From Fibrobacter succinogenes subsp. succinogenes S85 (GTDB lineage: Bacteria > Fibrobacterota > Fibrobacteria > Fibrobacterales > Fibrobacteraceae), in NCBI RefSeq assembly GCF_000146505.1, contig NC_017448.1, forward strand, positions 2,040,001-2,072,000: a stretch of 32,000 nt of DNA, written 5' to 3'. Both the position numbers and the translations under genes were made by a program. Position 1 is the first letter of the stretch. Each line of letters opens with the position of its first letter. Below the pieces are notes generated by a model that worked only from the letters and a program-made list of their open reading frames with translations, did no database searches and was not told the DNA's origin. Shown piece by piece: positions 2,720-20,522 of this stretch.

Positions 2720-2728
2720 ATTGTAAAA

Positions 2729-2956: not shown

Positions 2957-2959
2957 AAG

Positions 2960-6138: not shown

Positions 6139-6167
6139 TTGACAAAACAACAAAAAAAACATATCAT
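6139..6167 (+). promoter_or_regulatory. Putative sigma70-type promoter for the + strand toxin/XRE pair
   Basis: TTGACA at 6139-6144, a 17-nt spacer, then TATCAT at 6162-6167. A 7-bp inverted repeat ttattca-N5-tgaataa (6115-6133) abuts the -35 and could be an operator. An AGGAG Shine-Dalgarno (6219-6223) lies 5 nt before the ATG at 6229. This is a sequence-pattern call only. Confidence 0.3.
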
Positions 6168-6277
6168 TATTCGCAAAACGAATAGCAACCACATTAAAGG
6201 ATTAACTTATGAAAATCTAGGAGAACATATGCCTTCCGCATGGACAATAAACAACGACGCCTCGTGCTTTTCTCGCA

Positions 6278-6610: not shown

Positions 6611-6643
6611 AACATCACATACACCCTAACAAGGGAGACCGCT

Positions 6644-7294: not shown

Positions 7295-9961
7295 CATACA
7301 ATCAGGTAACATTTTATCCCAAGGCATATTATGAGCCCTCAAAACATACGCATGATTAGATAGACTTGAATCAAATTTCTTGTCATACAATTCAGCTATT
7401 ATTTTCCCCACATTCTCATTCACCTTATAATCATTATAAGGAACTAGATGCATCGCATTCACCTTCAAAGAATAATTTGAATTTTCCGATTCTACCTTAC
7501 TTTTCCCATATGGAATGTTTTTATCATCCAATGCGAAAATACACCTAACCTCAACTTCAACATCTTTTCCAAGAATCTTCTTATTCGTAGCCAATATCTT
7601 ATCAATTGTCGTATTAAGTCTTACATATGATCTTTCAGTTTCTTTACAATTACGGAAATAATAATTCAACATTTTCTCTGTTGAAGAACCTGAAATAATA
7701 TTATCCGTCAAAAAAATTATTTTTGAAATGGTTTTAGGTTTTTGGCCTTCAATATTCAAATAATAACCATAAATAGCATCATTTTTAAGGTTTGCATTTA
7801 ACAACCCTGCATCAATGGCCCATTTTATAATACTTCGGTCTTCTGTGATGTTTTTTGTAATAATATTCGATAGAGTTCCCCCGTCTCCGTAGCTTTCTTT
7901 GCCAACAAATAAAACATCATTACTCTCCAATTCTTTGATTTTCTTGATAAAAGTAGAATCCCATTCATCACTATTCAAAACATAATTTGAATAATATTTA
8001 TTTAAAAGCAAGTCCTTAAATTTTTCGAACCAATTTTTTTCATCCCCCGGTTTAATAAATACCTGTATGTGCCAATATAATTTAAAAATAGCCAAAGCTT
8101 TACAATCTGTTCCGTTTGTAAATCCGTACAGTTTTCGTAATTTATCTGTAAATCCAGTGTGTTCAACAATTGTAGCAATCCTAAAAAAATTTGAATCTTT
8201 TAAGAAAATATCTTTTGTTAAAGAACTTTCTTCCCTTATATTATGCAATTTTTTTAAATATTTTTCCGTATCTATCCATTTACGAGGAATAAGAATATAA
8301 TGGCTATTTTTGTTTATCGCCCATATTTTTTCTTCCTCGTAATCATTTATATTATCATCTTCATTCTCGCACTTAATTACACTCGCGTCAATTCGATGAG
8401 AGTCGACATAAAATAAATTTTTTCCTTTATTTTTCTTTATTTCAACAGAAACAATATTTCCTTCATGTTCGGAGAAATATTCTTTCCTCAGCAAATTTTC
8501 AAAAAAAACTTTTATATCGCCATTACAAGGCACATAGATTTGATAAGGCATAATTAGCTTCGGAACCAAATCCATAGAAGTATTTTCGTCATAACGATCT
8601 GGATTTACATATTTTTTTATAAAATTAAAATAAAGGATAAGCGCATTTTCAATCTTTCCATGCTTTTCATTTTCTTCAATAAATCGTTTAAAAAGAGCAT
8701 TTTGATAAAACTCATCGTCAGTCAACGTTTTAATACATTCTAAATATTTCGTATTTTGAACGCAATCATCACCTGTTAAGTTTGCAAAAAATTCAGCTAA
8801 AAAATCTATTGTAAGAATATTTGTTTCTAATCTATTTTGTTTAAGAATTACACCTCTTATTCCATTCTGACTATTTCCTATGATTTTCCAAAAATGTCTT
8901 GGTGTGCAAGGAGAGGATTTATTTTCTGATTCAACAATTTGTTTGTCTTTGAATTGATTTGTTATTTGAAGATAACGGCCATCATTTCTATCTACAATAA
9001 AGGCCTTATCAAAAAAAACATTATAACAAGATTTACTACTCACGTCGAGTAAAACATCTACTTTTGCATTTGAATTACTTCCTAAAAGAATTTCTTTTAG
9101 GGAACAAAACCTCCAGTTTTCCTGAACAGCTAAAACTATATACCATGCAATTTCTTCATTTTTAGAGTTTTTTTCAGCTTGAACTGTTTCTCCGCCAAAA
9201 TAATCTTTTTTTGTACTTCTAATAATTAAATATGATTCGTCGTGAACCATCAAAACTTGGTTTGCTAAATTGTTTTTTCCTGCAAGTGCTCCTCCTATAA
9301 AAGATCCATTATTGCATAAAAGTTCAAGAATTTTAATATTGTATTTTTGGGCAATCTCATTCACTTTTTGGCGAATAGAAACCTTGTCATCAAAATCTAT
9401 TTGTGTATAGATTTGCAACGCGAAGAAAAGCTGAATTAGATTTTCTTTTGTTGGATCCTTTGCGTCTTCAATAACTCCATCTAACAGGTCATGAATCGGA
9501 TAAACGTATGCTCCTATGTCATCCTTAATCCGAAAAATCCACGAAAATTGTTCTGTAAACTCCCCAATATGGGTATAAAAAACATTAAACTTATCTTTTA
9601 AGGTATTAAATAGCAATCTGTTCTTATTTGCTAATTCGCTTAAAAATTGTACTAAAACAATTCCATGATGAGAATAAATGTTTTTTCGTTCTTTTGCTAG
9701 AGATAAATTATTTATGTAATCAATAAAATTTTTGAATAGATTTATAGGAAAGTCTTTAGAGTGTGCAGATTCCAATTTTATTACACACGAGAGCATCCAA
9801 AAAATTCTACATATTTCTTCAATGTTTTCTTCTTTTTCAGTATTCTCGAATTTTTCAGATAGAGTTAAATTCACCAATTCAATAAGAATTTTGATTTTAT
9901 TTAAATCTTTATTTTCTAAATCTAACGACAACTGTTCTAGACGACGCTTCAACATCTTCAT
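7244..9961 (-). CDS. Large (905 aa) uncharacterised partner of the AEP-RT, with a C-terminal PRTase-like nucleotide-binding loop
   Basis: A long uninterrupted ORF in roughly 25% GC DNA. Its ATG lies 7 nt after the RT stop, and the spacer reads AAGGGAA, which is SD-like. KIIFLTDNIISGSSTEKML near aa 740 resembles the PRPP-binding loop (hhhhDDhhsTGgT) of type I phosphoribosyltransferases. I recognise nothing in the remaining roughly 700 aa. Confidence 0.7.
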   Translation of the reverse strand: MKMLKRRLEQLSLDLENKDLNKIKILIELVNLTLSEKFENTEKEENIEEICRIFWMLSCVIKLESAHSKDFPINLFKNFIDYINNLSLAKERKNIYSHHGIVLVQFLSELANKNRLLFNTLKDKFNVFYTHIGEFTEQFSWIFRIKDDIGAYVYPIHDLLDGVIEDAKDPTKENLIQLFFALQIYTQIDFDDKVSIRQKVNEIAQKYNIKILELLCNNGSFIGGALAGKNNLANQVLMVHDESYLIIRSTKKDYFGGETVQAEKNSKNEEIAWYIVLAVQENWRFCSLKEILLGSNSNAKVDVLLDVSSKSCYNVFFDKAFIVDRNDGRYLQITNQFKDKQIVESENKSSPCTPRHFWKIIGNSQNGIRGVILKQNRLETNILTIDFLAEFFANLTGDDCVQNTKYLECIKTLTDDEFYQNALFKRFIEENEKHGKIENALILYFNFIKKYVNPDRYDENTSMDLVPKLIMPYQIYVPCNGDIKVFFENLLRKEYFSEHEGNIVSVEIKKNKGKNLFYVDSHRIDASVIKCENEDDNINDYEEEKIWAINKNSHYILIPRKWIDTEKYLKKLHNIREESSLTKDIFLKDSNFFRIATIVEHTGFTDKLRKLYGFTNGTDCKALAIFKLYWHIQVFIKPGDEKNWFEKFKDLLLNKYYSNYVLNSDEWDSTFIKKIKELESNDVLFVGKESYGDGGTLSNIITKNITEDRSIIKWAIDAGLLNANLKNDAIYGYYLNIEGQKPKTISKIIFLTDNIISGSSTEKMLNYYFRNCKETERSYVRLNTTIDKILATNKKILGKDVEVEVRCIFALDDKNIPYGKSKVESENSNYSLKVNAMHLVPYNDYKVNENVGKIIAELYDKKFDSSLSNHAYVLRAHNMPWDKMLPDCMLKIETMGGLLQRKNEL

Positions 9962-9968
9962 TTCCCTT

Positions 9969-12482
9969 TTATTTTTCTAGTGATTTTGACAAGAAAATCA
10001 ATATACTTTTTTCTATGAACTCAACTCCATCATCTTTTGAAAAATAATCAACTAAACATTTTAATTGATTCTCCTTATTTTCTAATAAGGTGTTATTTTG
10101 AACCGACGTAAATAAAATCTGAATAAAATTTTTAAAATTGATAGAATTAATTGGAATTTCTTTGTAATACTCTTTATTAATAAAAAGTTGAAATAAAAAA
10201 GGAGATGAAAATAGTAATTTGTAGAATTTTCTAAAGACGCTTCCTCTTCCCATATCAGAAGCTGCTATTTGTTCCAAATGCTTTTTTGCAAAATCAATCC
10301 TATTTGGAAGATCAATACAATTACTCAACAAGAAATTGGCATCGTTAATACTCCATTCTCCATTTCTTAAAACAAATCTATCCATTGCAAAACACGGATC
10401 TCCATCAAGTAAAACACTTTTTTCTTGCGTAACATCATACATCAATTGATTTAGACGACCAAATTCTTCTAATTCTTCTAATGACAAATTCGAAATTTTA
10501 CCATAAATCTTTGTTTTTTCCTTGTTAAAGAAAAGACTATTTTTTTCAAAAAAAGAAGCTAATTCCATCAAAATTTTTTCACCATCCAGCGTTGAGTCAT
10601 AGAAAATATACATATCATCCACATATCTAAATATTTTTACTTTGTTAGACAAAGTAATATTTTTTTCAATAAATTCATCAACTATAGAATCAAGAATAAA
10701 TTCTACAAGAACTCTAGCATAAGCTGGACCTTGTGGAACGCCTTTTTGAGAGCCTACAGCATTAATCATTAGTCGTTCGTTGAATGAAATAAGGTAATTG
10801 CAAATATTTGAAATTTCTTTTCCTATTTTTTCTTTTTTGTCAATACTTTTCAGCAAAGTGTTTTTTAGAGAGCTCAAAAAAATGCTATCATAACAATTTT
10901 TTAAATCAGCCTTAATAAAGCCGAAATCTTCAAATAGTTTTAGATTAAAAAACACAGATACATCTTGGATAAATTTACTCCATGAATTTATCCAAGGAGA
11001 AAAAACATCGCCGCCCTCTGATAAATTTAAATGGTAGCTATAAGACTTGTAATCTTTTTGTATGCGACTCACTAGTTCAAAAATAAGTGCAGTAGTAAGA
11101 ACTCTTTCTTTCACCCCAAGTGATATCATTATTCGTTCTTTTTTTTCTTCTTTTCGCAAAAAAGACATATAATCTATATCAAGAGGAGTTTCCGCTTCAC
11201 CAGCAATAATTTTTTTTAAAACGCTATTAGATTCAGAAATATCATAAAAAGAGAAAAAACGAAAATCTTGTTCTATTTTTAGAGAAAGAACTTCATCGTT
11301 GTAATGAAAATAGTTATTCTCTTTCTTTAAAATACTTTCAATTAAAAGAGAATCTTTACTTTTTTTTATTTCACAACTTTCAAAAGGAATGTCCATTTTC
11401 TCTAAAACAAACTCAGCAATAGAACGCTGATCCTTACAAGGAGAAACTCCATATATGCTATGTAGATATTGAATTGTCAGCGGAAAATAAACTCTTTTAT
11501 TTTTCCGAATTTCCTCATTTGTAATCTCGGCATTAAAATTCGACTGCATTTTAAATATTTGCCATAAAATTTTTTCACCTTCTCTAATATGGGCAAATGT
11601 ACCTAGCATTATTTTTCGATCACATATTGTCATTTTCCCATTAGAAATATTTCTCCATATAATTTTCAAAGCAGAATCAGATTCAAATGCTCGCTCTAAC
11701 TGTTCAAAGGAGTAATTCTCTTTGGGGGTGACAAATTGTCTTTTTACAAATTCTTCTATTTCAATTTGTTGTACATCTAGCTTAATTCTTTCTACAAGTT
11801 CTATAGGATTATTTACAGAAAATTTTTTCAAACATTCAAGTTGGCTTCTTAAAAACGACGTGTCAAATTTTTCAATTTTTTCGCAAGAGAAATTGTTTAT
11901 ATCGTTTACAAAATATGAATAAGTTCCTTTTTGATGTCGCGAAAGCGGAATTTTTACCATAGATCCATATTTGTTTTTTTTCTTTCCGCTCAATACTTTA
12001 GGAAATCTATCTAAACCATAGACCAAATCAGCCGCCAAACAAGATTTCATGCCATCCAACAATCGATCTTGTATTAAATAACCTAAGTTTTTAGGAATTG
12101 CACGATTAAATAGAATCCAAATATGAAAACCTCTTCTTCCGGAATATTCTATTATATATTTAATATTTAATGAATCTAACACCTTTGTAAAAGGAATTAC
12201 ATACTTTTCTTTTAATTCTTTTACATTCCCTCCGGCGTCCTTCTTGCAATCAAAGTCAAAACAGATCCATCTTAGCAAATCTAAATATGTCAGCTGTTGA
12301 TACGCTCCTAATGCGGCGCCTGATTTCAACATTTTTTTTATTAAAAATGGAGTTACCGTTGCTTTGGTTGCTATATAAATACCATCGTCTCTTTGCACTC
12401 CAACTACAGTGTCATTGGTGACAAATTTTTGAAAAAGTTCATTTGATACTTCATCCAATAACAAATCCATAGAATCTTTCAT
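9969..12482 (-). CDS. Fusion protein: N-terminal archaeo-eukaryotic primase (AEP/PrimPol) domain + reverse transcriptase (UG/Abi or DRT-like)
   Basis: 837 aa. AEP motifs in order: ICFDFD (DxD), YSGRRGFHIWILF (SGxGxH, compare eukaryotic PriS SGRRGVHCW), GLDRFP...GSMVKIPLSRHQKG. RT motifs: FIKADLKNCYDSI (A), KGVPQGPAYARVLVEFIL (B), FRYVDDMYIF (C, YxDD), FNKEKTKIY (D). The ATG lies 3 nt after the mod stop. Confidence 0.85.
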   Translation of the reverse strand: MKDSMDLLLDEVSNELFQKFVTNDTVVGVQRDDGIYIATKATVTPFLIKKMLKSGAALGAYQQLTYLDLLRWICFDFDCKKDAGGNVKELKEKYVIPFTKVLDSLNIKYIIEYSGRRGFHIWILFNRAIPKNLGYLIQDRLLDGMKSCLAADLVYGLDRFPKVLSGKKKNKYGSMVKIPLSRHQKGTYSYFVNDINNFSCEKIEKFDTSFLRSQLECLKKFSVNNPIELVERIKLDVQQIEIEEFVKRQFVTPKENYSFEQLERAFESDSALKIIWRNISNGKMTICDRKIMLGTFAHIREGEKILWQIFKMQSNFNAEITNEEIRKNKRVYFPLTIQYLHSIYGVSPCKDQRSIAEFVLEKMDIPFESCEIKKSKDSLLIESILKKENNYFHYNDEVLSLKIEQDFRFFSFYDISESNSVLKKIIAGEAETPLDIDYMSFLRKEEKKERIMISLGVKERVLTTALIFELVSRIQKDYKSYSYHLNLSEGGDVFSPWINSWSKFIQDVSVFFNLKLFEDFGFIKADLKNCYDSIFLSSLKNTLLKSIDKKEKIGKEISNICNYLISFNERLMINAVGSQKGVPQGPAYARVLVEFILDSIVDEFIEKNITLSNKVKIFRYVDDMYIFYDSTLDGEKILMELASFFEKNSLFFNKEKTKIYGKISNLSLEELEEFGRLNQLMYDVTQEKSVLLDGDPCFAMDRFVLRNGEWSINDANFLLSNCIDLPNRIDFAKKHLEQIAASDMGRGSVFRKFYKLLFSSPFLFQLFINKEYYKEIPINSINFKNFIQILFTSVQNNTLLENKENQLKCLVDYFSKDDGVEFIEKSILIFLSKSLEK

Positions 12483-12485
12483 ATC

Positions 12486-14405
12486 TTACACCACCTTCAC
12501 GGTTGTATTTGGGCTGAGGGTTTTGAAGATTTCGGTGACATTGATTTTGGCGGAGTCGCTTTTGAAGCTGGAGTCACGGAAGACGGCGCGGAGGGGCTTG
12601 GTTGCTGCGATTTGGCGGATGGCGGCTTCGGGGATGTCGCTTGCAAAGCAGGCGACTAGGTCGCCGTCATTGACGTTATAGACTTGGAGGTTTTCGATGG
12701 TTTCGGTTTTGATGGGGAGCGAGAGCGGGACGCCCCAATCGACGAGGCAGCCGAAGAGGAGGTCCATGTCGGTGCGGCCGTCCTTGATGTTGCTGATTTG
12801 CTCGACGAGGTCTTGCTGGGAGATTTCGCCGGCGGAGTAATAGACGTCCTTCATGTTGGAGTCATCGATTTTCAGGACGCGGAAACCGATGTCCAACGGT
12901 TTTGCAGTTGTGGGCTTGTCACTTGCGCTATCAAACAGGTCCGTTTTGTCGGCGGCAGATTTTTCTTTGGCTTGTTGTTCTGCAAGGATTTTATCGCCTG
13001 CGCGGCGGATGCGTTCCTTACCGATTTCGCAAATGGTCTTGTAGCCAGCCTTTGCGGCTTCAGAATTTTCATCGCATTTTTCTGGAAGTTGAACCATGAT
13101 GAATTTGCGATGGCCGCCGTCTTCAGCATTCAATTGCATAACGGCATGAGCAGTTGTTGCAGAGCCAGAGAAGAAGTCTAAAACAATTCCAGACGGGTCT
13201 CTTAATAGAGCCAACATATTTTGGACAAGTTCTATTGGTTTTGGAGTATCGAAAACCTGAATTCCATTAAATAGCTCTTTTATCATTGCCGCAGATTGAC
13301 GAGTTGTTCCATATTTTGGTCCATCCCATAAATTTTCAGGAGTTCGCCCCACTTGATCGTTCAAATAAATTTTTCGTATAATGCCACTAAAATCACTTTT
13401 AAACTTAATTTCACCCGTAGAAATTTTTTCTTTGATTGATTCTTCCGACCATCTCCAACCTTTTTCTGGAGCCTTTATCACATTTCCATTTGGAGCAACA
13501 ATATCATAGCACAACGTTTTTCTGTAATTTGGACTGCGGACATCCCCACTTCGCCACAAGCCCTTCGGATCGTTATCAGGATTACTGTAATTTACATTAT
13601 CTTCAGCAGTCCTTTCCATATAAAATCTTGGCAATTGGTTCATATCGTGAGCATACACGAACGTATGATTATACTGTCTTGAAAAATGAAGTTCATCATT
13701 TTTGCTTTGTTGTGTATGTTTCCATATGACATTTGCAACAAAATTACTTCCACCAAACACTTCGTCGCAAATCTTTTTCAGGTTCGCTTGTTCGTTATCG
13801 TCGATGCTGATAAATATCACGCCATCGTCGGTGAGCAGGTTGCGGGCGAGCAGCAGGCGGCTGTAAATCATGGAACACCAGTCGGAATGGAAACGGCCGT
13901 TGCTGTCGGAATTCTGCACCATGCGATTTCCTTCGTCGTCCACGGCGCCGCTTTCTTCGGCGTACTTGGCGCTATCCATGCGGAAGTCGTCTTTGTAGAT
14001 AAAGTCGTTTCCGGTGTTGTAGGGCGGGTCGATGTATATCATCTTGACCTTGCCCAGGTAGCCCTCTTGCAGGAGTTTCAGGGCTTCGAGGTTGTCGCCT
14101 TCGATGTAGAGGTTCTCGGTGGTGTCGAAGTTCTTGGATTCTTCCACGCAGGGGCGCAGCGTCTTGCGGATGGGTTTCGCGGCTTCTACCATGGCGTCGC
14201 GCTTGCCGACCCAGGTGAATTCGTAGGACTCGTCGCCTTCCGCGACGCTCTCGCCGAGCATCTGCTTGAGCGCATCGAAATTCACCGCCTTCTTCAGCTT
14301 GCCATCCTTGGCCTTGCTTTCGGTCACGCAATTCGGGAACAGCGCAGCAATCTTCTCGACGTTCATCTGCACCATATCGGGAGTTTCAAACTTCATCTTT
14401 TCCAT
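12486..14405 (-). CDS. mod: Type III R-M Mod subunit, beta-class N6-adenine DNA methyltransferase
   Basis: 639 aa. Motif IV MIYIDPPYNTGNDFIYKDDF is N-terminal and motif I VLDFFSGSATTAHAV is C-terminal, with a central variable region between them. That is the Type III Mod architecture. The flanks are GC-rich and the centre is AT-rich. Confidence 0.9.
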   Translation of the reverse strand: MEKMKFETPDMVQMNVEKIAALFPNCVTESKAKDGKLKKAVNFDALKQMLGESVAEGDESYEFTWVGKRDAMVEAAKPIRKTLRPCVEESKNFDTTENLYIEGDNLEALKLLQEGYLGKVKMIYIDPPYNTGNDFIYKDDFRMDSAKYAEESGAVDDEGNRMVQNSDSNGRFHSDWCSMIYSRLLLARNLLTDDGVIFISIDDNEQANLKKICDEVFGGSNFVANVIWKHTQQSKNDELHFSRQYNHTFVYAHDMNQLPRFYMERTAEDNVNYSNPDNDPKGLWRSGDVRSPNYRKTLCYDIVAPNGNVIKAPEKGWRWSEESIKEKISTGEIKFKSDFSGIIRKIYLNDQVGRTPENLWDGPKYGTTRQSAAMIKELFNGIQVFDTPKPIELVQNMLALLRDPSGIVLDFFSGSATTAHAVMQLNAEDGGHRKFIMVQLPEKCDENSEAAKAGYKTICEIGKERIRRAGDKILAEQQAKEKSAADKTDLFDSASDKPTTAKPLDIGFRVLKIDDSNMKDVYYSAGEISQQDLVEQISNIKDGRTDMDLLFGCLVDWGVPLSLPIKTETIENLQVYNVNDGDLVACFASDIPEAAIRQIAATKPLRAVFRDSSFKSDSAKINVTEIFKTLSPNTTVKVV

Positions 14406-14419
14406 GGGATACCTTTTGT
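14320..14419. repeat. Direct repeat copy A: functional mod 5' end plus about 14 nt of leader
   Basis: Aligns with 17211-17309 at an offset of 2891 nt. There are 3 substitutions (14346 a/g, 14361 g/a, 14371 a/g) and one T indel at the distal end. Confidence 0.9.
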
Positions 14420-14451
14420 ACGAAATATAGGATCATTTCTTCATTTTGTGC

Positions 14452-17148
14452 TTACACACTATGAAAACGCCTTTCTAAATCATCAACAGTATTCTTCAAT
14501 TTTTTATATACACCCAAGAATGTATTATCTTTTTTCAAAAATTCCAAAATATTTAATGTTGAACGGATTGACGAATAATATGTTTTTGGGGGATAGCCAT
14601 CAATAAGCTTCTCAACCAATTTACAAACCTCATTTTTATTTTTCTTAAGATTAAAAGCAATTAAATAAAGATGATAATTTGTAGTGTTAATGAACTGTCC
14701 AAAGTCATTATTCTCCATTTTACTTATTTTTTGATTTACAACATATTGCTTTATAATTTTTTGACAATTTTTATCTGATATCTGGTATAATTCAAGTAAT
14801 ACATTTTGAATGAATTCTATTTTTTCTTTCTCAGAATAATCATCAATATTTCGAATTATATTATGAATAATATAATCAGAAGTAAATTTAGATTTAAGAA
14901 TACGGCCACAATAGTAAAGATTGTATAATCTATTCCATGACAATGCTGTTTCTTCATAACCGTTCATTTTTTTGCAAATAAATTTATTTAACAAATTTTC
15001 CAACAATGTAATAATTTGTTTTTGATTAAATGAACGTGAGTATAGATTCCACTGAATAGCAAAAAAACTATTGATTGCGCTAAAAATAACAAGGGTATTC
15101 TTAGCTTCATTCACCAGACGATTTAGTATGGCCCATATTTTCTTATATAATTCATCCGATAACTCATTTAATGATAAGATGAAAAGTGCTTTTTCTATAT
15201 ATCCATCAAAATTATCCCAAATAGAATAGGATGTTCTATCAATAAAATGATTCACACAATTTTTTATTACAGAATCAACAAGCCAATTTAATAGATCCTG
15301 GTCTAAAGCCAAATTCTTCCTTTTGCCTTTCTTTTGAAAATCTTCAAATAGGTATTTTAAATCATCGCTCTTATAATATTTGATGCATACATACAAATCA
15401 ATTTTACTTAAAGTAATTTTTTTCTTTTTCTGCTGTTGTAATAAAGCTATTGACACATAATTTTTGCATAATTCACGATAAATTGAAAAACCTTCTATGC
15501 AAATACCATTTAGTAGAACAAAATCAATCAGATTTTGCAATTCAGATTCCGGTTTATTTTCATTTGACGAAAAAACCATTCCTCCACGATCGATAATTCT
15601 GTAATTCTTTTCTTTTTCCTTTACATTTGTAAAAGACTCAAATTGAAATTTGTAAAGATCAAGCATCGTTAAGAAATTCTTCATTTCTTCACAATCTCTT
15701 TGAGCATCTTTAGGGAAAAAGCTATACTCTATATCTATTGAAAACCGACTTTCCTGCTTAAATTTTATTTCAAGGTCACTTATATATTTTAGTTCATTTA
15801 AAAGAAGATTGTGATTAAAAAAACCTACAAGCAAATAAAGATAATTATGTTTTCTTTTGCATAACGAAATCATTCGCCTATTACACTCAAAAGCATCTTC
15901 AATTCTACCTAGATTTCTGAAACAGACAATATTCCTAAGAACAGAAGAAATATCATCCTCATCCCTTTTTATTGAGTAATCAAAATTTATTATTGCAGAC
16001 TCTTCACGTACATTATTTTCTGTAAAAAGGCGATATTTATAACAATTTTTTTCATCTATAGATGTCACAAATCCTGTAATATTGGCTTTAGCCAGTATAT
16101 TACATATTCGGTTAATTTTTTCATCACATCCACTCAATTCTTTTATAAAATTTTGGTATATTTCTTTTCTCTTCTCATCTTCTTTTTCTCTAAAGTTATA
16201 CTCATGAAAATGCAGGATACCTCTTTTTTGTGAATCGTATAATATTTCACTATTTTTTAAAGAATTGCAAATATTCTTTTGTAATGCTACATAGTAGTTA
16301 TCGTATTTCTTTATTTCGTTATATACATATTCAACGGGATTTTGAGAAAAATCAGTTGGCGTCCCAAGTTCCGTTAAAAAACTTTTTAACGACTCGGTTC
16401 GATTTTCGTTTTCAACAACAATTGTGATAATTCCAAATTTTTCTAAATACCTTTCCGAAAATTCGTCATACTTATTGACCACCATATAAATAGGGGGTTG
16501 GACTGTAGAATGATTTTGGAACCAGTTTACAATTTGTTTTAAGTCTATATCGCTAAACGAGTACCCTATCATTACAATAGTATGAGTGGATACAATACTC
16601 TTTATATAATTTTCTATTAAAGGAAAATTGTTTGAGTAATTGAGATAATCATCTTCAGTAAAAATATAATTGTCGTGGTGAAAATCACCATGCATTTTAA
16701 TAATCTTATTGTCGTTCTTTGATTTAATTAATTCATTATCAGAAGCAATAACATCATAGATATAATTTATTTCTTCTTCTATACAATTTTCAAAAAGACA
16801 ATCCCAATTTGTTGTAATTATGCAGTGTGGTCGTAATTTTAAGATAGCTCGTTGAATATCAGATGGAATATCTTTTGTGGGGAAGCAACTACCAACAGTA
16901 CTCTTTAATTTTAATGGTCCATACTTTAAAGCATAAAGTTGAGCAATTTTTAAAGGATCAGAATCCTTGCATCCAATAAGGCCTCTCTGCAACTTTTTTA
17001 ATATATCCGACCATAGTGGATATGTATCACCAGAGGCAGAGGCCCTAGACACTCCCGAACCAACAAAAAATGCCAATTTGTGTTCCGATAAAGATTCTTT
17101 TATCAATCTATAGTATTCAATATTTTTGTCAACAATAGAATTAGCCAT
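14452..17148 (-). CDS. SIR2_2-domain protein with a long helical C-terminal region (DSR1/DSR2-like defence-associated sirtuin candidate)
   Basis: 898 aa. The N-terminal roughly 260 aa carry SIR2_2 landmarks: KLAFFVGSGVSRAS, YPLWSDIL, CIITTNWDCLFE, IIKMHGDF, VMIGYSFSDIDL. The remaining roughly 630 aa are low-complexity helical. A hand-counted sample gives about 28% GC. Confidence 0.8.
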   Translation of the reverse strand: MANSIVDKNIEYYRLIKESLSEHKLAFFVGSGVSRASASGDTYPLWSDILKKLQRGLIGCKDSDPLKIAQLYALKYGPLKLKSTVGSCFPTKDIPSDIQRAILKLRPHCIITTNWDCLFENCIEEEINYIYDVIASDNELIKSKNDNKIIKMHGDFHHDNYIFTEDDYLNYSNNFPLIENYIKSIVSTHTIVMIGYSFSDIDLKQIVNWFQNHSTVQPPIYMVVNKYDEFSERYLEKFGIITIVVENENRTESLKSFLTELGTPTDFSQNPVEYVYNEIKKYDNYYVALQKNICNSLKNSEILYDSQKRGILHFHEYNFREKEDEKRKEIYQNFIKELSGCDEKINRICNILAKANITGFVTSIDEKNCYKYRLFTENNVREESAIINFDYSIKRDEDDISSVLRNIVCFRNLGRIEDAFECNRRMISLCKRKHNYLYLLVGFFNHNLLLNELKYISDLEIKFKQESRFSIDIEYSFFPKDAQRDCEEMKNFLTMLDLYKFQFESFTNVKEKEKNYRIIDRGGMVFSSNENKPESELQNLIDFVLLNGICIEGFSIYRELCKNYVSIALLQQQKKKKITLSKIDLYVCIKYYKSDDLKYLFEDFQKKGKRKNLALDQDLLNWLVDSVIKNCVNHFIDRTSYSIWDNFDGYIEKALFILSLNELSDELYKKIWAILNRLVNEAKNTLVIFSAINSFFAIQWNLYSRSFNQKQIITLLENLLNKFICKKMNGYEETALSWNRLYNLYYCGRILKSKFTSDYIIHNIIRNIDDYSEKEKIEFIQNVLLELYQISDKNCQKIIKQYVVNQKISKMENNDFGQFINTTNYHLYLIAFNLKKNKNEVCKLVEKLIDGYPPKTYYSSIRSTLNILEFLKKDNTFLGVYKKLKNTVDDLERRFHSV

Positions 17149-17206
17149 ACAAACCTTTTTAAAGAATACTTTGATTTGTCACGATGCTCATCATTTTAAA
17201 ATCACC

Positions 17207-17296
17207 TTATTCGGTCACGCAATTCGGGAACAGCGCGGCAATCTTCTCGACATTCATCTGCGCCATATCGGGAGTTTCAAACTTCATCTTTTCCAT
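17207..17296 (-). pseudogene. Truncated 5' remnant of mod (29 codons + stop)
   Basis: Hand translation gives MEKMKFETPDMAQMNVEKIAALFPNCVTE*. The intact mod starts MEKMKFETPDMVQMNVEKIAALFPNCVTESKAK.... The two diverge exactly after codon 29. Confidence 0.85.
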
Positions 17297-17309
17297 GGGA
17301 TACCTTTGT
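17211..17309. repeat. Direct repeat copy B: mod 5' remnant
   Basis: See copy A. About 97% identical over about 97 nt. Confidence 0.9.
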
Positions 17310-17323
17310 CCGAGGTATCGCCT

Positions 17324-18646
17324 TTATTCTGCCGCTTTTTCCGCTTTTTTTAAATTTTTTATTGTAGCGATTCCGTACAGCGGTATATTCAGCATCTTTT
17401 CGTTGTCACGGAAGGGGAGCATCGATGTTTTTACCGCCAAATCGGGCGCAAACTGGTCACAGAACAACGTAAAACTGCGTGAGCGCAGGTTCTCGCCGGA
17501 CTTGACTTCAATGGGGATAATCAGTCCATCCTTTTGCAGAATGAAATCCACTTCAGAGGTGCTGCGTTCGTTTGTCCAATATCCGAGGTAGTCGGGGTCC
17601 AGAGTAGAGAGCTCCTGCATCACGAACTGTTCGGCCATTGCGCCCTTGAACTCCGTGAAAATTTTGTTCCCGTCGATTAACGTTTTAGCGTCTAAACCAG
17701 CGGATGCGCCAAGCAAGCCCACGTCCAACATGAAAAGCTTGAACACGTGAGTGTCCTGGTAGGCCTTCAGCGGCATACGGGGTTCCTTGACCCGGTGGGA
17801 TTCCAGCACCAGCCCGCAATCGCGGAGCCATTCTATGGCAATTTCAAAATCCTTGGCGCGTGCGCCCTCGCGGATAATCCCGTACACGAATTTCTTGTTT
17901 TCCTTGCTGAGCTGGGCAGGGAGGCTGTCCCACACCATGTTCAGGCGCGGAATCTGCTCGCCAGGCGCATGCTTCGAAAAATCCGCCGCATACGAGCGCA
18001 GTATTTCGCGCTGGATTTCGCGGGCCTCGAAGTAGTCGCCGGTATCGACCCATTTCTGCACCACTTCAGGCATTCCACCCACAAACAAGTAACTCCTCAG
18101 CAAACCGAGCAGTTCATCGTGAAATGGTTCCAATGCGTTCCATTGCCCGTTACGGATGGCTTCGCAAAGCATTTCTTTTTTTGCGGCGTACAGGAATTCA
18201 AAAAACGAGAGCGGACCAAGGTCCAAGAAAGACACCTTGCCCACCGGAAACGAAAGGCCGGAGTGCAGCGCAATGCCGAGCAGCGAACCAGCCGCGACTA
18301 CGGCGTATTGGGGAGCGTCTTCGCAAAAATACTTGAGCGAGGTCAGGCCGCCCTCTGCCGCCTGGATTTCATCGAAGATAATCAGGGTGTTTTCGGGGTC
18401 GATCTTTTTCCCGTAATTGAGCTCAATCGTAGAAACAATTCTCTTGATGTCGAAATTTTCAGAGAACAGGTCACGGAGGCGGCGCTCATTTTCGAAGTTG
18501 ATATAGACGGTCTCGGCAAAGGAGGTCTTGCCGAACTCCTTCAAAAGCCAGGTCTTTCCAGTCTGTCTAGCTCCACGGACAATCAGCGGCTTGCGGTCCT
18601 TACGCACTTTCCACTGAGCCAGCTGTTGCATCGCAAATCGTTCCAT
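17324..18646 (-). CDS. AAA-family ATPase with C-terminal DUF4143 domain
   Basis: 440 aa. Walker A VRGARQTGKTWLL, Walker B LIIFDEIQ. The C-terminal SEVDFILQKDGLIIPIEVKSGE is typical of the AAA_14/DUF4143 family. GC is host-like. Confidence 0.8.
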   Translation of the reverse strand: MERFAMQQLAQWKVRKDRKPLIVRGARQTGKTWLLKEFGKTSFAETVYINFENERRLRDLFSENFDIKRIVSTIELNYGKKIDPENTLIIFDEIQAAEGGLTSLKYFCEDAPQYAVVAAGSLLGIALHSGLSFPVGKVSFLDLGPLSFFEFLYAAKKEMLCEAIRNGQWNALEPFHDELLGLLRSYLFVGGMPEVVQKWVDTGDYFEAREIQREILRSYAADFSKHAPGEQIPRLNMVWDSLPAQLSKENKKFVYGIIREGARAKDFEIAIEWLRDCGLVLESHRVKEPRMPLKAYQDTHVFKLFMLDVGLLGASAGLDAKTLIDGNKIFTEFKGAMAEQFVMQELSTLDPDYLGYWTNERSTSEVDFILQKDGLIIPIEVKSGENLRSRSFTLFCDQFAPDLAVKTSMLPFRDNEKMLNIPLYGIATIKNLKKAEKAAE

Positions 18647-18704
18647 AATGCCTCTTTTTTGCCTTTTTATAGTAAATATATATAAAAAAGCCGTAAAACA
18701 ACAA

Positions 18705-18752
18705 AAATATCTTGATAAAAGTGTAGTTTAAATACATTTTTATCAAGATATT
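18705..18752 (-). terminator. Perfect 16-bp inverted repeat; likely intrinsic terminator of the SNF2-PLD operon, or an operator for the ATPase gene
   Basis: aaatatcttgataaaa (18705-18720), a 16-nt loop, then ttttatcaagatattt (18737-18752). On the minus strand the hairpin is followed by TTTTGTTGTTTTAC. The stem is almost entirely A/T, so stability is modest. Confidence 0.4.
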
Positions 18753-18865
18753 TAAGTTTTGGGAGGGGAAATGGCGATTTTAGCGGAATTTTGCCATTTT
18801 TCGGCAAAAATCGCGCCGTATGTTGAAATATCTATAATTTTGGCCGGATTTTTTGTTGAAAAAAA

Positions 18866-20065
18866 CTATAATTTTTTGGATTTCTTCTTTTTTGGGGGAC
18901 ATATTCTCCAAATGAGCGTATCTATTCCGGCAAGATCTTTCACATAATTTGAATTTTGTCTTACAACAGAGCGCAACCTCCTTGCCAAATCAATATACTT
19001 TTGACCTTCTGTTCCCCCACGATCTAAGGACCACTCATTCTTTTTTATCCACGTTTTTACAGGATCGTTTAAAACAGGGTATTTCTTCGGGAAGAACTGG
19101 CACAACATTTCGGATAACCAAGCTTTTCTCGCGGGATTTTTCCTTTTGGCTAATAGGTCAATTTTCTTCGCCACCAATTCATCTAAATCCAGAAGACTCA
19201 TTTTCTTTTCATTTTCAATGATATCTATCAAAGCCGTAGTTGCTTCTCGCCAATTAATATTCTTTGTGCAGATTCTTTCAACACCACTTCCTTGAAAACG
19301 GAAGCAGTCTTCTTCCTCCCATCTTCTATGCCATAATTGAGTAAATTCAGTCCAAAAAGCAGCGTTACTCATCGATCCGGTTGCATTTGATCTTAATAAA
19401 TGAAGAATTTTTGCCTTTTTTTCTTTGAAAAGTTCTTGTTTGTATTCTCGTTCATTCAGGAGATCTTTAAAGTCCTTTTCCCAGGGTAATTTAATATTCA
19501 AATCAATTTGATCTAATGTAATTTCACCTTTAACTCTTTTTCCACCTATTTTGCTCTCTTCATATCTTGCAATCCAACTCTTAGAAATAGGATCCGATAA
19601 TTTGATACAACCATTAAACCACTGCACTATCCTTTCGTATTCTTCCTGTTTTATACTACTAAAACTATTTATCTCATAATTTTCAGACAACGCTGCACTC
19701 GTCATATTAGAAGAACCGATTAAGGCAAAACATTCCTTTCGTTCTTTCCAAATTAATACCTTGGGATGAAACGTATTCTCGTTCGACGGGAAAGCAAACA
19801 CATTTCCGCGCAAATTTCTTGGAAGCCAATCCAACAGAGACTGACAAGCCGCCTTTCTCGTCAGGCCAAAATTTGTTCCCACCAGAGCAACGAATTTCTT
19901 GCAATCCTTCTTTGGCTTTTGAGAAAAAGACCAGTCTGTCAAAAAAGCTGTGGCGATGTAGATTTCCTCAGCTCGTTTAAAAGCTCTATTGTATAGAGCT
20001 TTTAGATTTTCGTTATCTTTGGGATTGAGAAGTACTTTCATAATGAACAACTTCCTGTTATGCAC
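18866..20065 (-). CDS. PLD-superfamily (single HKD) nuclease-like protein with an uncharacterised C-terminal domain
   Basis: 399 aa. The HKD region is FHPKVLIWKERKECFALIGSSNMTSAAL (HxK...GSxN). An alternative ATG at 20041 (MKVLLNPKD) would remove the 8-nt overlap with the upstream gene. Confidence 0.7.
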   Translation of the reverse strand: MHNRKLFIMKVLLNPKDNENLKALYNRAFKRAEEIYIATAFLTDWSFSQKPKKDCKKFVALVGTNFGLTRKAACQSLLDWLPRNLRGNVFAFPSNENTFHPKVLIWKERKECFALIGSSNMTSAALSENYEINSFSSIKQEEYERIVQWFNGCIKLSDPISKSWIARYEESKIGGKRVKGEITLDQIDLNIKLPWEKDFKDLLNEREYKQELFKEKKAKILHLLRSNATGSMSNAAFWTEFTQLWHRRWEEEDCFRFQGSGVERICTKNINWREATTALIDIIENEKKMSLLDLDELVAKKIDLLAKRKNPARKAWLSEMLCQFFPKKYPVLNDPVKTWIKKNEWSLDRGGTEGQKYIDLARRLRSVVRQNSNYVKDLAGIDTLIWRICPPKKKKSKKL

Positions 20066-20522
20066 CAGAGCTATGATTTCTTTTTTCTTCGCGAGCTTTT
20101 AGCCATGCATTTACACCCATTTTCAATACTATAAATAATAAAATTCCAATAACAGGTCCTATAAAAACAGATGCCGTACCAACAATTCCTGCAATAGCTT
20201 CTGATATTTTAGCGACAACAGCATACTGAATTATATTAGTATCCGCCAGCAATGTTGTTATTTCGTTCTTATATTTGTCATCTCCTCGCAAAAGTAATTC
20301 TAATTCATCCAGAATTCTTTCTAAAGTAGGTGTCTGTGGAGCCTCAGATCCAAAAGGAGCAGTGCTATTATTTGTTACACAAAGCCATTCTCTAGCAACT
20401 TTTTCGTAGTCGCCTAAATTAGCATACATTGTTGTTATCATGGACTGCTGATATTTTGGTATAGTTTGAAGCCAGGAATCTGTACCATACTGTTCTAATA
20501 GAGCAATAAATTGTTCATTCAT
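20058..20522 (-). CDS. Small protein (154 aa) with a C-terminal hydrophobic, probably membrane-inserting, segment
   Basis: The soluble N-terminal roughly 100 aa are followed by AIAGIVGTASVFIGPVIGILLFIVLKMGVNAWL and a basic tail KAREEKRNH. Its start shares one base with the protease stop (TAATG). Confidence 0.6.
   Translation of the reverse strand: MNEQFIALLEQYGTDSWLQTIPKYQQSMITTMYANLGDYEKVAREWLCVTNNSTAPFGSEAPQTPTLERILDELELLLRGDDKYKNEITTLLADTNIIQYAVVAKISEAIAGIVGTASVFIGPVIGILLFIVLKMGVNAWLKAREEKRNHSSGA

What the first reader, a model, noticed from the sequence alone, without database searches (positions are those of the whole stretch)
14320..17309. Single-gene SIR2 cassette bracketed by about 97-bp direct repeats that duplicate the mod 5' end
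Positions 14320-14419 and 17211-17309 are direct repeats at an offset of 2891 nt, with 3 substitutions and 1 indel. They cover the first 86 nt of mod plus about 14 nt of its leader. The upstream copy is a dead 29-codon stub (MEKMKFETPDMAQMNVEKIAALFPNCVTE*). The downstream copy heads the intact mod. Everything between them is one AT-rich gene, with no integrase, transposase or inverted ends. This is the footprint expected from Campbell-type single-crossover integration of a circular cassette carrying a short mod-homologous segment. Unequal recombination between diverged mod alleles would leave the same footprint. As a consequence, the intact mod has lost its native promoter-proximal position and must be read through from the stub and SIR2 gene. 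This could be a general route by which single defence genes hitch-hike into R-M loci.
Basis: seen in the sequence. Interest (0 to 1): 0.7.

Follow-up and report, generated by a model that had tools for sequence, protein, structure and literature searches.

The report
Defence sirtuin gene embedded before mod
A foreign anti-phage sirtuin gene sits just upstream of the methylase gene of a Fibrobacter restriction-modification operon, flanked by a duplicated copy of the methylase gene's start. Comparison with related genomes shows this is an old, shared recombination seam rather than a recent mobile-element insertion.

Summary
Positions 14319-14416 and 17210-17307 are a 98-nt direct repeat with 3 substitutions. 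It duplicates the leader and first 87 nt of mod (minus strand), leaving a 29-codon stub, and brackets one 27%-GC gene.

The window is Fibrobacter succinogenes S85. The gene is a full-length DSR2-type defence sirtuin. It lies inside a conserved SNF2-DUF4391-mod-res scaffold whose two variable slots carry different defence cargo in every Fibrobacter genome examined.

Matched empty sites exist (L001, L017, L010). The identical stub junction occurs in independent metagenome assemblies (L090, L091). There SIR2 is 98.3% identical in DNA, while SNF2 is 79% and the rest of mod 76%, so the module reassorts by homologous recombination. A sister clade (71% aa) has mod codons 1-18 fused in frame to SIR2, with a different repeat extent. 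More distant relatives are free-standing.

The seam is therefore old and specific to this SIR2 lineage; no other cargo has one. No integrase, transposase, terminal inverted repeats or tRNA is present.

An integrase-free recombinational origin fits the data. A circle, a recent event, a general route and obligatory read-through are not shown.

This is a new variant of the known "embedded defence gene" theme, of moderate interest.

The parts
17210..17307 (-). Upstream copy of the direct repeat: 11 nt of mod leader plus the 29-codon mod stub (ATG at 17296, stop at 17209-17207).
   Evidence: It carries the consensus bases of all Fibrobacter mod alleles at the three positions where the two copies differ.
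14319..14416 (-). Downstream copy of the direct repeat, heading intact mod. Homology to other mod alleles starts at 14429 (-24, TATATTTCGTAC).
   Evidence: It carries two substitutions private to S85 (GTG, GCT).
14452..17148 (-). DSR2-type defence sirtuin, 898 aa, 27% GC. This is the embedded cargo.
   Evidence: Pfam SIR2_2 E = 1.8e-24 and PADLOC Dsr2/ThsA. PDB DSR2 E = 3e-28 over residues 7-212. AlphaFold2 model with pLDDT 86 matches DSR2 over its full length, Foldseek E = 4.6e-23, TM about 0.6. N114, D116 and H153 are invariant in 40 homologues.
17149..17206 (-). 58-nt spacer between the stub stop and the SIR2 ATG. It contains a Shine-Dalgarno-like AAGGTGA and an 11-codon mini-ORF (17194-17159).
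   Evidence: It is only 82.8% identical to L090, against 98.3% for the ORF.
14406..14451 (-). Downstream seam: 22 nt of SIR2 3' UTR, then the mod leader starting at TATATTTCGTAC.
   Evidence: The junction lies at the same base where the AAA gene joins the leader in L001.
17299..17319 (-). S85-specific hairpin (GAUACCU...AGGUAUC) covering the stub's Shine-Dalgarno sequence. It replaces the TATATTT motif.
   Evidence: Folding energy -10.9 kcal/mol (z = -2.7), against -2.8 for the homologous L001 sequence. Also flagged.
12486..14405 (-). Type III-like mod methyltransferase, 639 aa. It is mosaic: a conserved 5' arm of about 690 nt, a variable middle and a conserved 3' arm.
   Evidence: Pfam N6_N4_Mtase and PADLOC MTase_III E = 1.6e-233. 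Arms are 96-97.5% identical across alleles.
17324..18646 (-). AAA_14/DUF4143 ATPase (PADLOC PDC-S01), 54% GC. It lies between the promoter region and mod in a subset of strains.
18700..18758 (.). Conserved palindrome, followed by TTTG, 21 nt, then TATATATTTAC. This is the presumed operator and promoter of the mod transcription unit.
   Evidence: It is present upstream of mod or of AAA in every Fibrobacter locus.
21169..25139 (-). Scaffold genes: HKD-SNF2 helicase (21837-25139) and DUF4391 (21169-21840).
1..3439 (-). Scaffold genes: Type III res (from 2716, running off the left end of the window) and DUF3990 (2960-3439).
18866..21169 (-). Other slot-1 cargo: PDC-M35A protease, PDC-M35B and a PLD nuclease-like gene, about 35% GC.
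3756..12482 (-). Slot-2 cargo between mod and res: DRT class UG10 reverse transcriptase (9969-12482), a 905-aa partner (7244-9961), an HTH gene (6644-7294, plus strand) and GmrSD (3756-5981).

Best explanation
**What it is.** The repeat is the recombination seam of an embedded defence gene. A foreign, AT-rich gene for a DSR2-type NAD-depleting sirtuin was joined in front of the mod gene of a Fibrobacter SNF2-DUF4391-mod-res restriction-modification scaffold. The gene came with about 58 nt of upstream and 22 nt of downstream sequence.

**How the seam formed.** The join duplicated mod's translation-initiation region, roughly -24 to +87. A 29-codon stub remains upstream and an intact mod downstream. 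No element-encoded recombinase was involved. The primary event was a host-mediated recombination: either an illegitimate join anchored by homology (HFIR-like), or a single crossover through a short mod-homologous segment.

**Age.** The event is old. It predates the split between S85 and the L090/L091 lineage. It probably also gave rise, by a deletion of about 117 nt at a short 'V-E/D-K' microhomology, to a sister form in which mod's promoter, ribosome-binding site and first 18 codons drive SIR2 directly.

**How it behaves now.** The module is passed between Fibrobacter lineages and between mod specificity alleles by ordinary homologous recombination. The arms are the conserved flanks: AAA plus the stub on one side, and the roughly 690-nt mod 5' arm on the other. 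Recombination between the two repeat copies could delete it precisely.

**Shown**
- The anatomy of the seam.
- The matched empty sites.
- The shared junctions in independent assemblies.
- The mosaic identity pattern.
- The DSR2 fold of the cargo.

**Inferred**
- The type of primary event.
- The direction from the unfused form to the fused form.
- Gain and loss by homologous recombination.
- Co-transcription with AAA and mod.
For: - **Seam and composition.** Searches confirm the repeat, the stub and the GC contrast.
- **Empty sites.** In L001 and L017, AAA is followed directly by the leader and mod. L010 is collinear with L098 at about 95% identity on both sides, and the two alignments overlap by 89 nt at the duplicated segment.
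- **Same junctions elsewhere.** The junctions GTGACCGAA|TAAGGTGATTTT and GAAATGATCC|TATATTTCG are both present in L090 and L091.
- **Mosaic identity, S85 vs L090**: SNF2 78.9%, DUF4391 84.7%, AAA 93.6%, stub plus leader 92.1%, spacer 82.8%, SIR2 98.3%, mod 5' (666 nt) 96.4%, rest of mod 76.1% (this last block measured on L091).
- **Same mod allele without the module.** L003 has a mod 96.9% identical to S85's but lacks this module.
- **Sister clade.** It has an in-frame mod(1-18)::SIR2 fusion and repeats of 58-144 nt at 82-89% identity, including the -10-like CGATATAAT.
- **Native state.** Free-standing relatives have their own N-termini and no mod nearby. S85's N-terminus MANSIVDKNIEYY matches that native form.
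- **Fusion point.** It falls on a V-E/D-K codon run shared by mod codons 16-18 and the native SIR2 N-termini.
- **No mobility genes or ends.** Searches find none, and no viral relatives exist.
- **HFIR is documented.** It is RecA-dependent and uses 3-10 bp microhomology joins (PMC6382021).
Against: - The donor sequence is unknown, so microhomology at the S85-type junctions cannot be checked.
- The two module types differ at both seams. S85-type duplicates -24 to +87; fused-type duplicates about -88 to +54. A single origin therefore needs at least two further deletions plus an exchange with an AAA-bearing allele, and two independent insertions cannot be excluded.
- Both AAA and SIR2 join the leader at the same base (-24/-25). 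Random illegitimate joins do not predict this.
- No experiment shows natural transformation or repeat-mediated loss in Fibrobacter.
- Empty sites cannot be told apart from precise excision products.
Confidence: 0.65

Rival explanations
1. Campbell-type cassette. A circular molecule carrying SIR2 plus a mod-homologous segment of about 100 nt integrates by one crossover into any mod 5' end. It excises again by recombination between the repeats, so the module is an integrase-free mobile cassette.
For: - The anatomy (homologous segment, cargo, homologous segment) is exactly what a single crossover gives.
- Matched empty sites exist.
- The module sits on different mod alleles.
- The mod 5' end is more than 95% conserved across alleles, so it could serve as a universal landing pad.
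Against: - A circle with mod homology can only arise from an already embedded copy, so this explains spread but not origin.
- The spacer, which would be internal to the circle, is 82.8% identical between S85 and L090, against 98.3% for the ORF next to it. Exchange breakpoints therefore lie inside the 'cassette'.
- The repeat extents differ between lineages.
- The Logan contigs of 2906 and 2921 nt are what a de Bruijn graph yields from the linear arrangement. They are not evidence of a circle.
Confidence: 0.15
2. Tandem duplication, or promoter capture. SIR2 was first ordinary slot-1 cargo lying just upstream of the mod promoter. One tandem duplication with end points 57 nt upstream of SIR2 and at mod +87 placed a copy of mod's promoter, leader and 5' end in front of a second SIR2 copy. 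The first copy was later lost.
For: - A different SIR2 gene sits in exactly that slot-1 position in L003.
- In the fused type, the copy downstream of SIR2 retains promoter sequence right up to the SIR2 stop codon.
- Only one rearrangement of a very common kind is needed to create the stub junction.
Against: - No genome shows the predicted precursor (this SIR2 clade followed by the palindrome, with no stub).
- No genome shows the two-copy intermediate.
- The model needs extra deletions: SIR2 copy 1 and the second palindrome.
- L010 versus L098 looks like a clean presence/absence of one module.
Confidence: 0.12
3. Two or more independent, targeted insertions. Related SIR2 genes were inserted separately into the same window of about 150 nt at the mod start. 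Each insertion made a target duplication of 90-140 nt, by an unknown mechanism that prefers this site.
For: - Both seams differ between the S85 type and the fused type.
- AAA and SIR2 cargo join the leader at the same base.
- Only this SIR2 lineage carries such seams.
Against: - The two embedded clades are each other's closest relatives, compared with the free-standing ones. This favours one entry.
- All differences can be derived by deletions at visible microhomologies.
- No candidate enzyme is encoded in or near the module.
Confidence: 0.06
4. Assembly or sequencing artefact that duplicates the mod 5' end.
For: None found. Short-read graph contigs do break at the 45-nt identical stretch.
Against: - The source is a complete genome, and the gene was found in two blocks of contigs longer than 1 Mb.
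- The same junctions occur in independent metagenome assemblies with their own private substitutions.
- The two copies differ at 3 positions.
Confidence: 0.01

Closest known systems
Defence genes embedded inside multi-gene defence systems (Payne et al. 2024, bioRxiv 10.1101/2024.01.29.577857). Classical examples are PrrC inside the EcoprrI hsd operon and BrxU inside BREX.
   Same: - Single- or few-gene defence cargo is nested between the genes of a restriction-modification-like system, in the same orientation.
- The cargo differs between strains.
- Several cargo genes here are PADLOC 'PDC' candidate families: PDC-S01, PDC-M35A/B and PDC-S06.
   Different: - That work covers Hma, BREX, DISARM and Type I R-M. 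Here the host is a Type III-like mod/res pair with HKD-SNF2 and DUF4391.
- It leaves the route of embedding open ('genomic sink'), and its main text contains neither 'recombination' nor 'direct repeat'.
- Here a physical seam, matched empty sites and mosaic identities show how one such gene got in and how it moves.
DSR2 (defence-associated sirtuin 2) of Bacillus subtilis, PDB 8wy8, 8k98 and others.
   Same: - An N-terminal SIR2 NADase domain with the catalytic Asn/Asp/His.
- A long helical C-terminal region.
- Similar size, and a single-gene system.
- A full-length fold match.
   Different: - Overall identity is only 16-18%, and sequence similarity is confined to residues 7-212.
- The trigger (tail tube protein in DSR2) is untested.
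- Here the gene is embedded in an R-M operon rather than free-standing.
Homology-facilitated illegitimate recombination during natural transformation (de Vries & Wackernagel 2002; Prudhomme et al. 2002; summarised in PMC6382021).
   Same: - Foreign DNA is integrated without a dedicated recombinase, using one homologous anchor and a short microhomology join.
- This can leave a duplication of the recipient sequence next to the insert.
   Different: - HFIR has been shown experimentally in Acinetobacter, Pseudomonas stutzeri and Streptococcus pneumoniae, not in Fibrobacter.
- The donor and the microhomology at the S85 junction are unknown.
Integrating elements that carry a copy of the target gene's end so that the gene stays intact (phages and ICEs at tRNA/tmRNA 3' ends).
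   Same: The outcome is the same: the cargo is bracketed by a duplicated piece of the target gene, one copy is a dead fragment, and the other copy keeps the gene whole.
   Different: - Those elements encode an integrase and use a defined att core.
- Here there is no integrase, no tRNA and no att-like core.
- The duplicated piece is the 5' end with its expression signals, and its extent varies between lineages.
Allelic shuffling of Type III mod genes through conserved 5' and 3' arms around a variable target-recognition region (phase-variable modA/modH alleles; own knowledge).
   Same: mod has 5' and 3' arms that are 94-97% conserved and a variable middle, and the alleles are reassorted among strains.
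   Different: Here the conserved 5' arm also carries an extra gene with it, and part of that arm is duplicated.

Membership tests
Embedded defence gene (sensu Payne et al. 2024) | Gene(s) nested between the genes of a multi-gene defence system. | tested here: met
   SIR2 lies between SNF2/DUF4391 and mod/res. The scaffold genes are conserved in at least 10 Fibrobacter loci.
Embedded defence gene (sensu Payne et al. 2024) | Same orientation as the host system, and cargo that varies between strains. | tested here: met
   All genes are on one strand except a single HTH gene. The cargo differs in every locus.
DSR2 defence sirtuins | N-terminal SIR2 domain with catalytic Asn and His. | tested here: met
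   Pfam SIR2_2 E = 1.8e-24. DSR2 PDB chains E = 3e-28. N114, D116 and H153 are invariant in 40 homologues.
DSR2 defence sirtuins | Full-length architecture: SIR2 domain, middle domain and C-terminal helical repeat domain. | tested here: met
   An AlphaFold2 model with pLDDT 86 aligns to DSR2 chains over about 1000 columns, TM 0.58-0.63, E = 4.6e-23. This is a prediction, not a solved structure.
DSR2 defence sirtuins | NAD+ depletion triggered by phage tail tube protein; tetramer; anti-phage activity. | not testable with these tools
   This needs biochemistry and phage assays.
Type III restriction-modification system | A mod (N6_N4 methyltransferase of the Type III class) together with a res (helicase-nuclease) gene. 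| tested here: met
   PADLOC MTase_III E = 1.6e-233. ResIII/DEAD matches in the gene at 2716 to below 1; RE_endonuc is on record for its homologues. One atypical point: mod and res are about 10 kb apart, and they are accompanied by HKD-SNF2 and DUF4391.
Integron gene cassette | An attC recombination site at the cassette end and an IntI integrase nearby. | tested here: not met
   No integrase in 32 kb. No structured inverted repeat at the cassette ends.
Transposon or insertion sequence | A transposase gene, terminal inverted repeats and a short fixed-length target duplication. | tested here: not met
   No transposase and no terminal inverted repeats. The duplication is 58-144 nt and varies between lineages.
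Campbell-type single-crossover insertion | The insert is flanked by two copies of the segment shared between the circle and the chromosome. | tested here: met
   However, other mechanisms give the same anatomy.
Campbell-type single-crossover insertion | Existence of the circular form. | not testable with these tools
   Read-level data or PCR are needed. The graph contigs L081 and L082 are uninformative.

The most novel reading that the evidence does not exclude
The duplicated mod start is a working adaptor rather than a mere scar. Because the SIR2 module carries its own copy of the most conserved 100 nt of mod, it has homology on both sides to any Fibrobacter mod allele. RecA alone could then insert it in front of a naive mod, and remove it precisely. 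It would also borrow mod's promoter, ribosome-binding site and start codon. This would be an integrase-free, homology-addressed mobile defence cassette, and a concrete mechanism for how defence genes become embedded in R-M operons.
Probability: 0.15. Interest if true: 0.75.

Novelty: new variant of a known kind. Interest (0 to 1): 0.45.

Why it matters
Defence genes are frequently nested inside restriction-modification and related systems. How they get there is explicitly an open question (Payne et al. 2024).

This locus gives a traceable example. It has a physical seam that duplicates the host gene's initiation region, and matched occupied and empty sites. It has two evolutionary states of the seam: a stub with its own stop codon, and an in-frame fusion that uses mod's expression signals. 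Its mosaic identity pattern shows exchange by homologous recombination among mod alleles.

It also identifies a conserved SNF2-DUF4391-mod-res scaffold in Fibrobacter as a two-slot hotspot holding a dozen or more different defence systems. That scaffold could be mined for new ones.

If the repeat proves to mediate gain and loss, it would show that host recombination plus a short borrowed homology is enough to mobilise defence genes.

Tried and rejected
1. **Assembly artefact.** Rejected, because the same junctions occur in independent assemblies.
2. **The Logan contigs of 2906 and 2921 nt as evidence of an excised 2891-nt circle.** Rejected. 2906 nt is exactly the unitig expected when a k=31 graph breaks at the 45-nt identical stretch of the repeat.
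3. **Transposon, integron or phage vehicle.** No transposase, integrase, terminal inverted repeats, tRNA or viral relatives were found.
4. **A general seam for all cargo.** Self-comparison of 20 or more loci found repeat seams only around this SIR2 lineage.
5. **The spacer as the native 5' UTR of SIR2.** It shows no convincing similarity to the upstream regions of free-standing relatives.
6. **L087 as the un-duplicated precursor in the R-M locus.** Its upstream genes are not the SNF2/DUF4391 scaffold. Only one gene is a distant homologue (23-26% identity) of the three-gene set seen in fused-type loci.
7. **The REP/MITE-like repeats that bracket modules in free-standing loci.** They are absent from S85 and from all the R-M loci.
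8. **A docking role for the Mod N-terminal peptide fused to SIR2.** This is unlikely. The fused copy drifts (MNAETT variants) and has a 10-aa deletion in P0004, and the fused-type repeat copies are only 82-89% identical.
9. **Literature searches.** Searches for DUF4391 systems and for Fibrobacter R-M found nothing relevant.
10. **Sigma-70 promoter scan.** It was uninformative in this AT-rich DNA: 14 sites found against 17 expected.
Full report
**1.

The window is part of the Fibrobacter succinogenes S85 chromosome (CP001792, about 1.60-1.62 Mb). All genes discussed here lie on the minus strand.

The repeat finder returns a single long direct repeat, 14319-14416 vs 17210-17307. It is 98 nt long with 3 substitutions and a spacing of 2891. 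Nothing else in 32 kb comes close; the next longest is 44 nt at 70%.

The copy at 17210-17307 holds 11 nt of leader and the first 87 nt of mod. It ends in a TAA created at the junction, and it translates to MEKMKFETPDMAQMNVEKIAALFPNCVTE*. The copy at 14319-14416 heads the intact 639-aa mod (12486-14405).

Between the two copies lie three things:
- a 58-nt spacer;
- one 898-aa ORF (14452-17148) with a SIR2_2 domain;
- 22 nt of 3' UTR.

The ORF has 26-28% GC, against about 50% for mod and the upstream AAA gene. The window contains no integrase, transposase, terminal inverted repeat, tRNA or Rfam family.

**2. What surrounds it.**

The locus is a defence island built inside a restriction-modification-like scaffold.

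| Element | Window position | GC or class |
|---|---|---|
| HKD-SNF2 helicase (scaffold) | 21837-25139 | about 50% GC |
| DUF4391 (scaffold) | 21169-21840 | GC falls from about 50% to about 35% across the gene |
| mod (scaffold) | 12486-14405 | about 50% GC |
| DUF3990 (scaffold) | 2960-3439 | about 45% GC |
| Type III res (scaffold) | 2716 to below 1 | about 50% GC |
| PDC-M35A/B and a PLD protein (cargo) | 18866-21169 | low GC |
| AAA/DUF4143 ATPase, PDC-S01 | 17324-18646 | 54% GC |
| SIR2 gene (cargo) | 14452-17148 | 27% GC |
| DRT class UG10 reverse transcriptase with 905-aa partner (cargo) | 7244-12482 | low GC |
| HTH gene (cargo) | 6644-7294, plus strand | low GC |
| GmrSD (cargo) | 3756-5981 | low GC |

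mod and res are thus about 10 kb apart.

**3. Related loci.**

A scan of one genome per species, using mod as the query, returned nine Fibrobacter loci.

tblastn shows the scaffold genes conserved across them: SNF2 about 95% aa, res 90-99% aa and DUF3990 97-100% aa. The content of two slots differs in every genome. Slot 1 lies between DUF4391 and mod; slot 2 lies between mod and DUF3990/res.

The slots carry a wide range of defence cargo:
- Lit-like proteins, AriA/PtuA-like ATPases, PDC-S06 and AbiL;
- a ThsA-like macro-domain protein and PD-T4-1;
- type IV restriction enzymes and Pycsar-like cyclases;
- KwaA-like genes and AIPR.

This is the 'embedded defence' pattern described by Payne et al. 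(2024). They note that the biological significance of embedding remains to be explored and invoke only a 'genomic sink'. Their main text mentions neither recombination nor direct repeats.

**4. Empty sites.**

In L001 and in F. intestinalis L017, the AAA gene is followed directly by the leader and mod.

In L002, L003, L007 and L010, a conserved palindrome and a -10-like CGATATAAT sit directly upstream of the same leader. In S85 that palindrome lies upstream of AAA, at 18700-18758.

The mod 5' region is 93-98% identical in DNA across all alleles for about 690 nt. That is far beyond +87, so the end of the stub is not the end of homology.

**5. The seam is shared and old.**

A SIR2 protein 98% identical to S85's (P0001) lies on two ENA metagenome contigs, L090 and L091. 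The order there is SNF2, DUF4391, PLD, AAA, stub, SIR2, mod. Both junctions are base-for-base the same as in S85...GTGACCGAA|TAAGGTGATTTT... and ...GAAATGATCC|TATATTTCG....

Block identities between S85 and L090 are strongly heterogeneous:

| Block | Nucleotide identity |
|---|---|
| SNF2 | 78.9% |
| DUF4391 | 84.7% |
| AAA | 93.6% |
| Stub plus leader | 92.1% |
| Spacer | 82.8% |
| SIR2 | 98.3% |
| mod 5' (666 nt) | 96.4% |
| Rest of mod (measured on L091) | 76.1% |

Within SIR2 there are 46 differences, 29 of them at third codon positions.

Conversely, L003 has a mod 96.9% identical to S85's but lacks this module.

So the same module sits on different mod specificity alleles, and the same mod allele occurs with and without it. 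That is the signature of exchange by homologous recombination through conserved arms.

In S85 the stub carries the consensus bases, and intact mod has two private changes (GTG, GCT). In L090 it is the stub that has the private changes. The two copies therefore drift independently.

**6. A sister form.**

Rumen and gut metagenome contigs carry SIR2 orthologues of 69-71% aa identity (72% nt), also directly upstream of mod. These contigs are L083-L086, L088 and L098-L103.

In them, the palindrome, the -10-like box, the leader and the first 18 codons of mod are fused in frame to SIR2: MEKMKFETPDMAQ..VEK|NNEYF.... The copy downstream of SIR2 keeps the -10-like box and promoter sequence up to the SIR2 stop codon. 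The repeats are 58-144 nt long at 82-89% identity.

L010 is the exact empty counterpart of L098. Both flanks are about 95% identical, and the two alignments overlap by 89 nt at the duplicated segment.

The fusion point falls on a V-E/D-K codon run. That run is present in mod codons 16-18 and in native SIR2 N-termini, for example MSDLVVEKNNEYY in P0018 and MANSIVDKNIEYY in S85. A deletion of about 117 nt from an S85-like seam would produce the fused form.

The Mod-derived leader is decaying. It shows MNAETT variants and a 10-aa deletion in P0004. This argues against a function for the peptide itself.

**7. The native state of the gene.**

Relatives at 55% identity (P0006, P0007) and at 68% identity (L087) are free-standing genes with their own N-termini, in unrelated defence islands with no mod nearby.

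The protein is a DSR2-type sirtuin:
- Its SIR2 domain matches DSR2 chains at E = 3e-28.
- N114, D116 and H153 are invariant among 40 homologues.
- A confident AlphaFold2 model (pLDDT 86) aligns with DSR2 over its full length, at Foldseek E = 4.6e-23 and TM about 0.6.

By analogy with DSR2, it is expected to deplete NAD+ when it senses a phage protein. This has not been tested.

**8. How it most likely arose and behaves.**

Shown:
- A foreign gene is joined to mod at +87 on one side and at -24 on the other, with duplication of the region in between.
- Matched empty sites exist.
- The junctions are inherited across lineages.
- The flanks are reassorted.

Inferred:
- The primary join was host-mediated and recombinase-independent.

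Homology-facilitated illegitimate recombination is a documented process that gives such products. A single crossover of a circle carrying a mod segment gives the same anatomy, but it can only explain re-insertion of an already formed module. The poor conservation of the spacer next to a 98.3% identical ORF also fits allelic exchange better than transfer of a fixed cassette.

A tandem duplication from SIR2 -57 to mod +87, with SIR2 first resident in slot 1, is a third possibility. It lacks any observed intermediate.

Two independent insertions cannot be excluded, because both seams differ between the two forms. An odd coincidence remains unexplained: AAA and SIR2 cargo join the leader at the same base.

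**9. Expression.**

AAA, the stub, SIR2, mod, the DRT gene and the 905-aa gene are all co-directional. The gaps between them are 27, 58, 46, 3 and 7 nt. No terminator-like site is predicted on that strand between SIR2 and mod. Co-transcription from the palindrome-associated promoter is therefore plausible.

Two points weaken the claim that SIR2 displaced mod from its promoter:
- AAA had already separated mod from the promoter in the empty-site strains.
- The retained leader starts with TATATTT. The same motif lies 35-40 nt upstream of the free-standing SIR2 genes, and 21 nt downstream of a TTTG upstream of AAA. It resembles the -7 element of Bacteroidetes-type promoters (my own knowledge, untested).

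In the S85 stub copy, three substitutions convert this motif into a hairpin over the stub's Shine-Dalgarno sequence. Its folding energy is -10.9 kcal/mol, against -2.8 kcal/mol in L001. In L090 and L017 the motif is deleted.

**10. Verdict.**

Embedding of defence genes in R-M-type systems is a known kind of arrangement. What is new here:
- a seam that duplicates the host gene's initiation region;
- two evolutionary states of that seam;
- matched empty sites;
- evidence for reassortment by homologous recombination;
- the recognition of a Fibrobacter SNF2-DUF4391-mod-res scaffold as a two-slot defence hotspot.

Interest is moderate. It would rise if the repeat is shown to mediate gain and loss of the module.

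Noticed in passing
window 18700-18758, and the homologous sites in L001-L010, L017, L083, L085, L090, L098 and L102: A conserved palindrome of about 18-nt arms (ATATCTTGATAAAAnTGT ... ACACTTTTATCAAGATAT) marks the boundary between slot 1 and the mod transcription unit in every Fibrobacter locus. In S85 it is followed by TTTG, 21 nt and TATATATTTAC. It looks like an operator plus promoter. The regulator is unknown; the HTH gene at 6644-7294 is a candidate.
   Followed up: partly
window 17299-17319: Three S85-specific substitutions turn the leader motif TATATTT into GATACCT. This pairs with AGGTATC, the stub's Shine-Dalgarno region, to give a -10.9 kcal/mol hairpin that is absent from L001. It may silence translation of the stub, or an internal promoter.
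   Followed up: partly
window 17159-17194 (minus strand); L090 about 7957-8010: The spacer between the stub and SIR2 holds a strong Shine-Dalgarno sequence (AAGGTGA) and a mini-ORF, MMSIVTNQSIL*. In L090 the mini-ORF is 17 codons long and overlaps the SIR2 ATG. Its first residues resemble the SIR2 N-terminus (NSIVDKN), so it may be a relic of an older SIR2 start or a coupling ORF.
   Followed up: partly
window 14429/14430; L001 about 9976: The AAA cargo (in L001) and the SIR2 cargo (in S85 and L090) join the mod leader at the same base, immediately before TATATTTCGTAC. This could be the functional limit of a promoter element or a preferred break point. It remains unexplained.
   Followed up: partly
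window 12482-12486 and 21169: Cargo is spliced very tightly onto the scaffold genes. The DRT UG10 ATG lies 3 nt after the mod stop, and the PDC-M35A ATG overlaps the DUF4391 stop (ATGA). This suggests translational coupling of cargo to scaffold.
   Followed up: no
window 7244-12482: A class UG10 defence reverse transcriptase with an N-terminal AEP primase-like domain (PADLOC RT_UG10_small, E = 1.6e-290) lies here. Its 905-aa partner has no Pfam or PADLOC match. Both are 28% GC and are embedded between mod and res.
   Followed up: no
L092 4348-4485, 5305-5437 and 14534-14671; L094 1847-1921, 5877-5961 and 10862-10948; L096 28-112 and 5013-5099: In the genomes where the SIR2 relatives are free-standing, GC-rich structured repeats of 85-135 nt (REP/MITE-like) separate neighbouring defence modules, including the SIR2 gene. 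They could supply homology for module shuffling. They are absent from S85 and from the R-M loci.
   Followed up: partly
L098 8417-9841; L102 8379-9808; L010 8444-9853; L087 3859-5457: A set of three small genes (about 133, 196 and 133 aa, no Pfam hits) always precedes the palindrome in fused-type loci and in L010. A distant homologue of the middle gene (23-26% identity) precedes the free-standing SIR2 in L087. This may be a functional link or a co-transferred pair.
   Followed up: partly
P0004 (L102 10001-12679): The Mod-derived leader of the fused SIR2 has lost 10 residues (MDKM|NVEK), apparently by slippage between two AGATGAA repeats. This shows that the borrowed peptide is dispensable.
   Followed up: yes
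L003 3649-6323: A different, only 30-46% identical SIR2 protein occupies slot 1 of a strain whose mod is 97% identical in DNA to S85's. It appears split into 120-aa and 765-aa ORFs. SIR2 effectors have therefore entered this scaffold at least twice.
   Followed up: no
L098/L099 355-552 vs 1245-1441; L004 1126-1258 vs 3201-3284: Further direct repeats (201 nt at 79%; 43 nt plus 35 nt at 93-94%) lie upstream of the SNF2 gene, near HicAB-like genes, at the outer edge of the scaffold. They were not examined.
   Followed up: no
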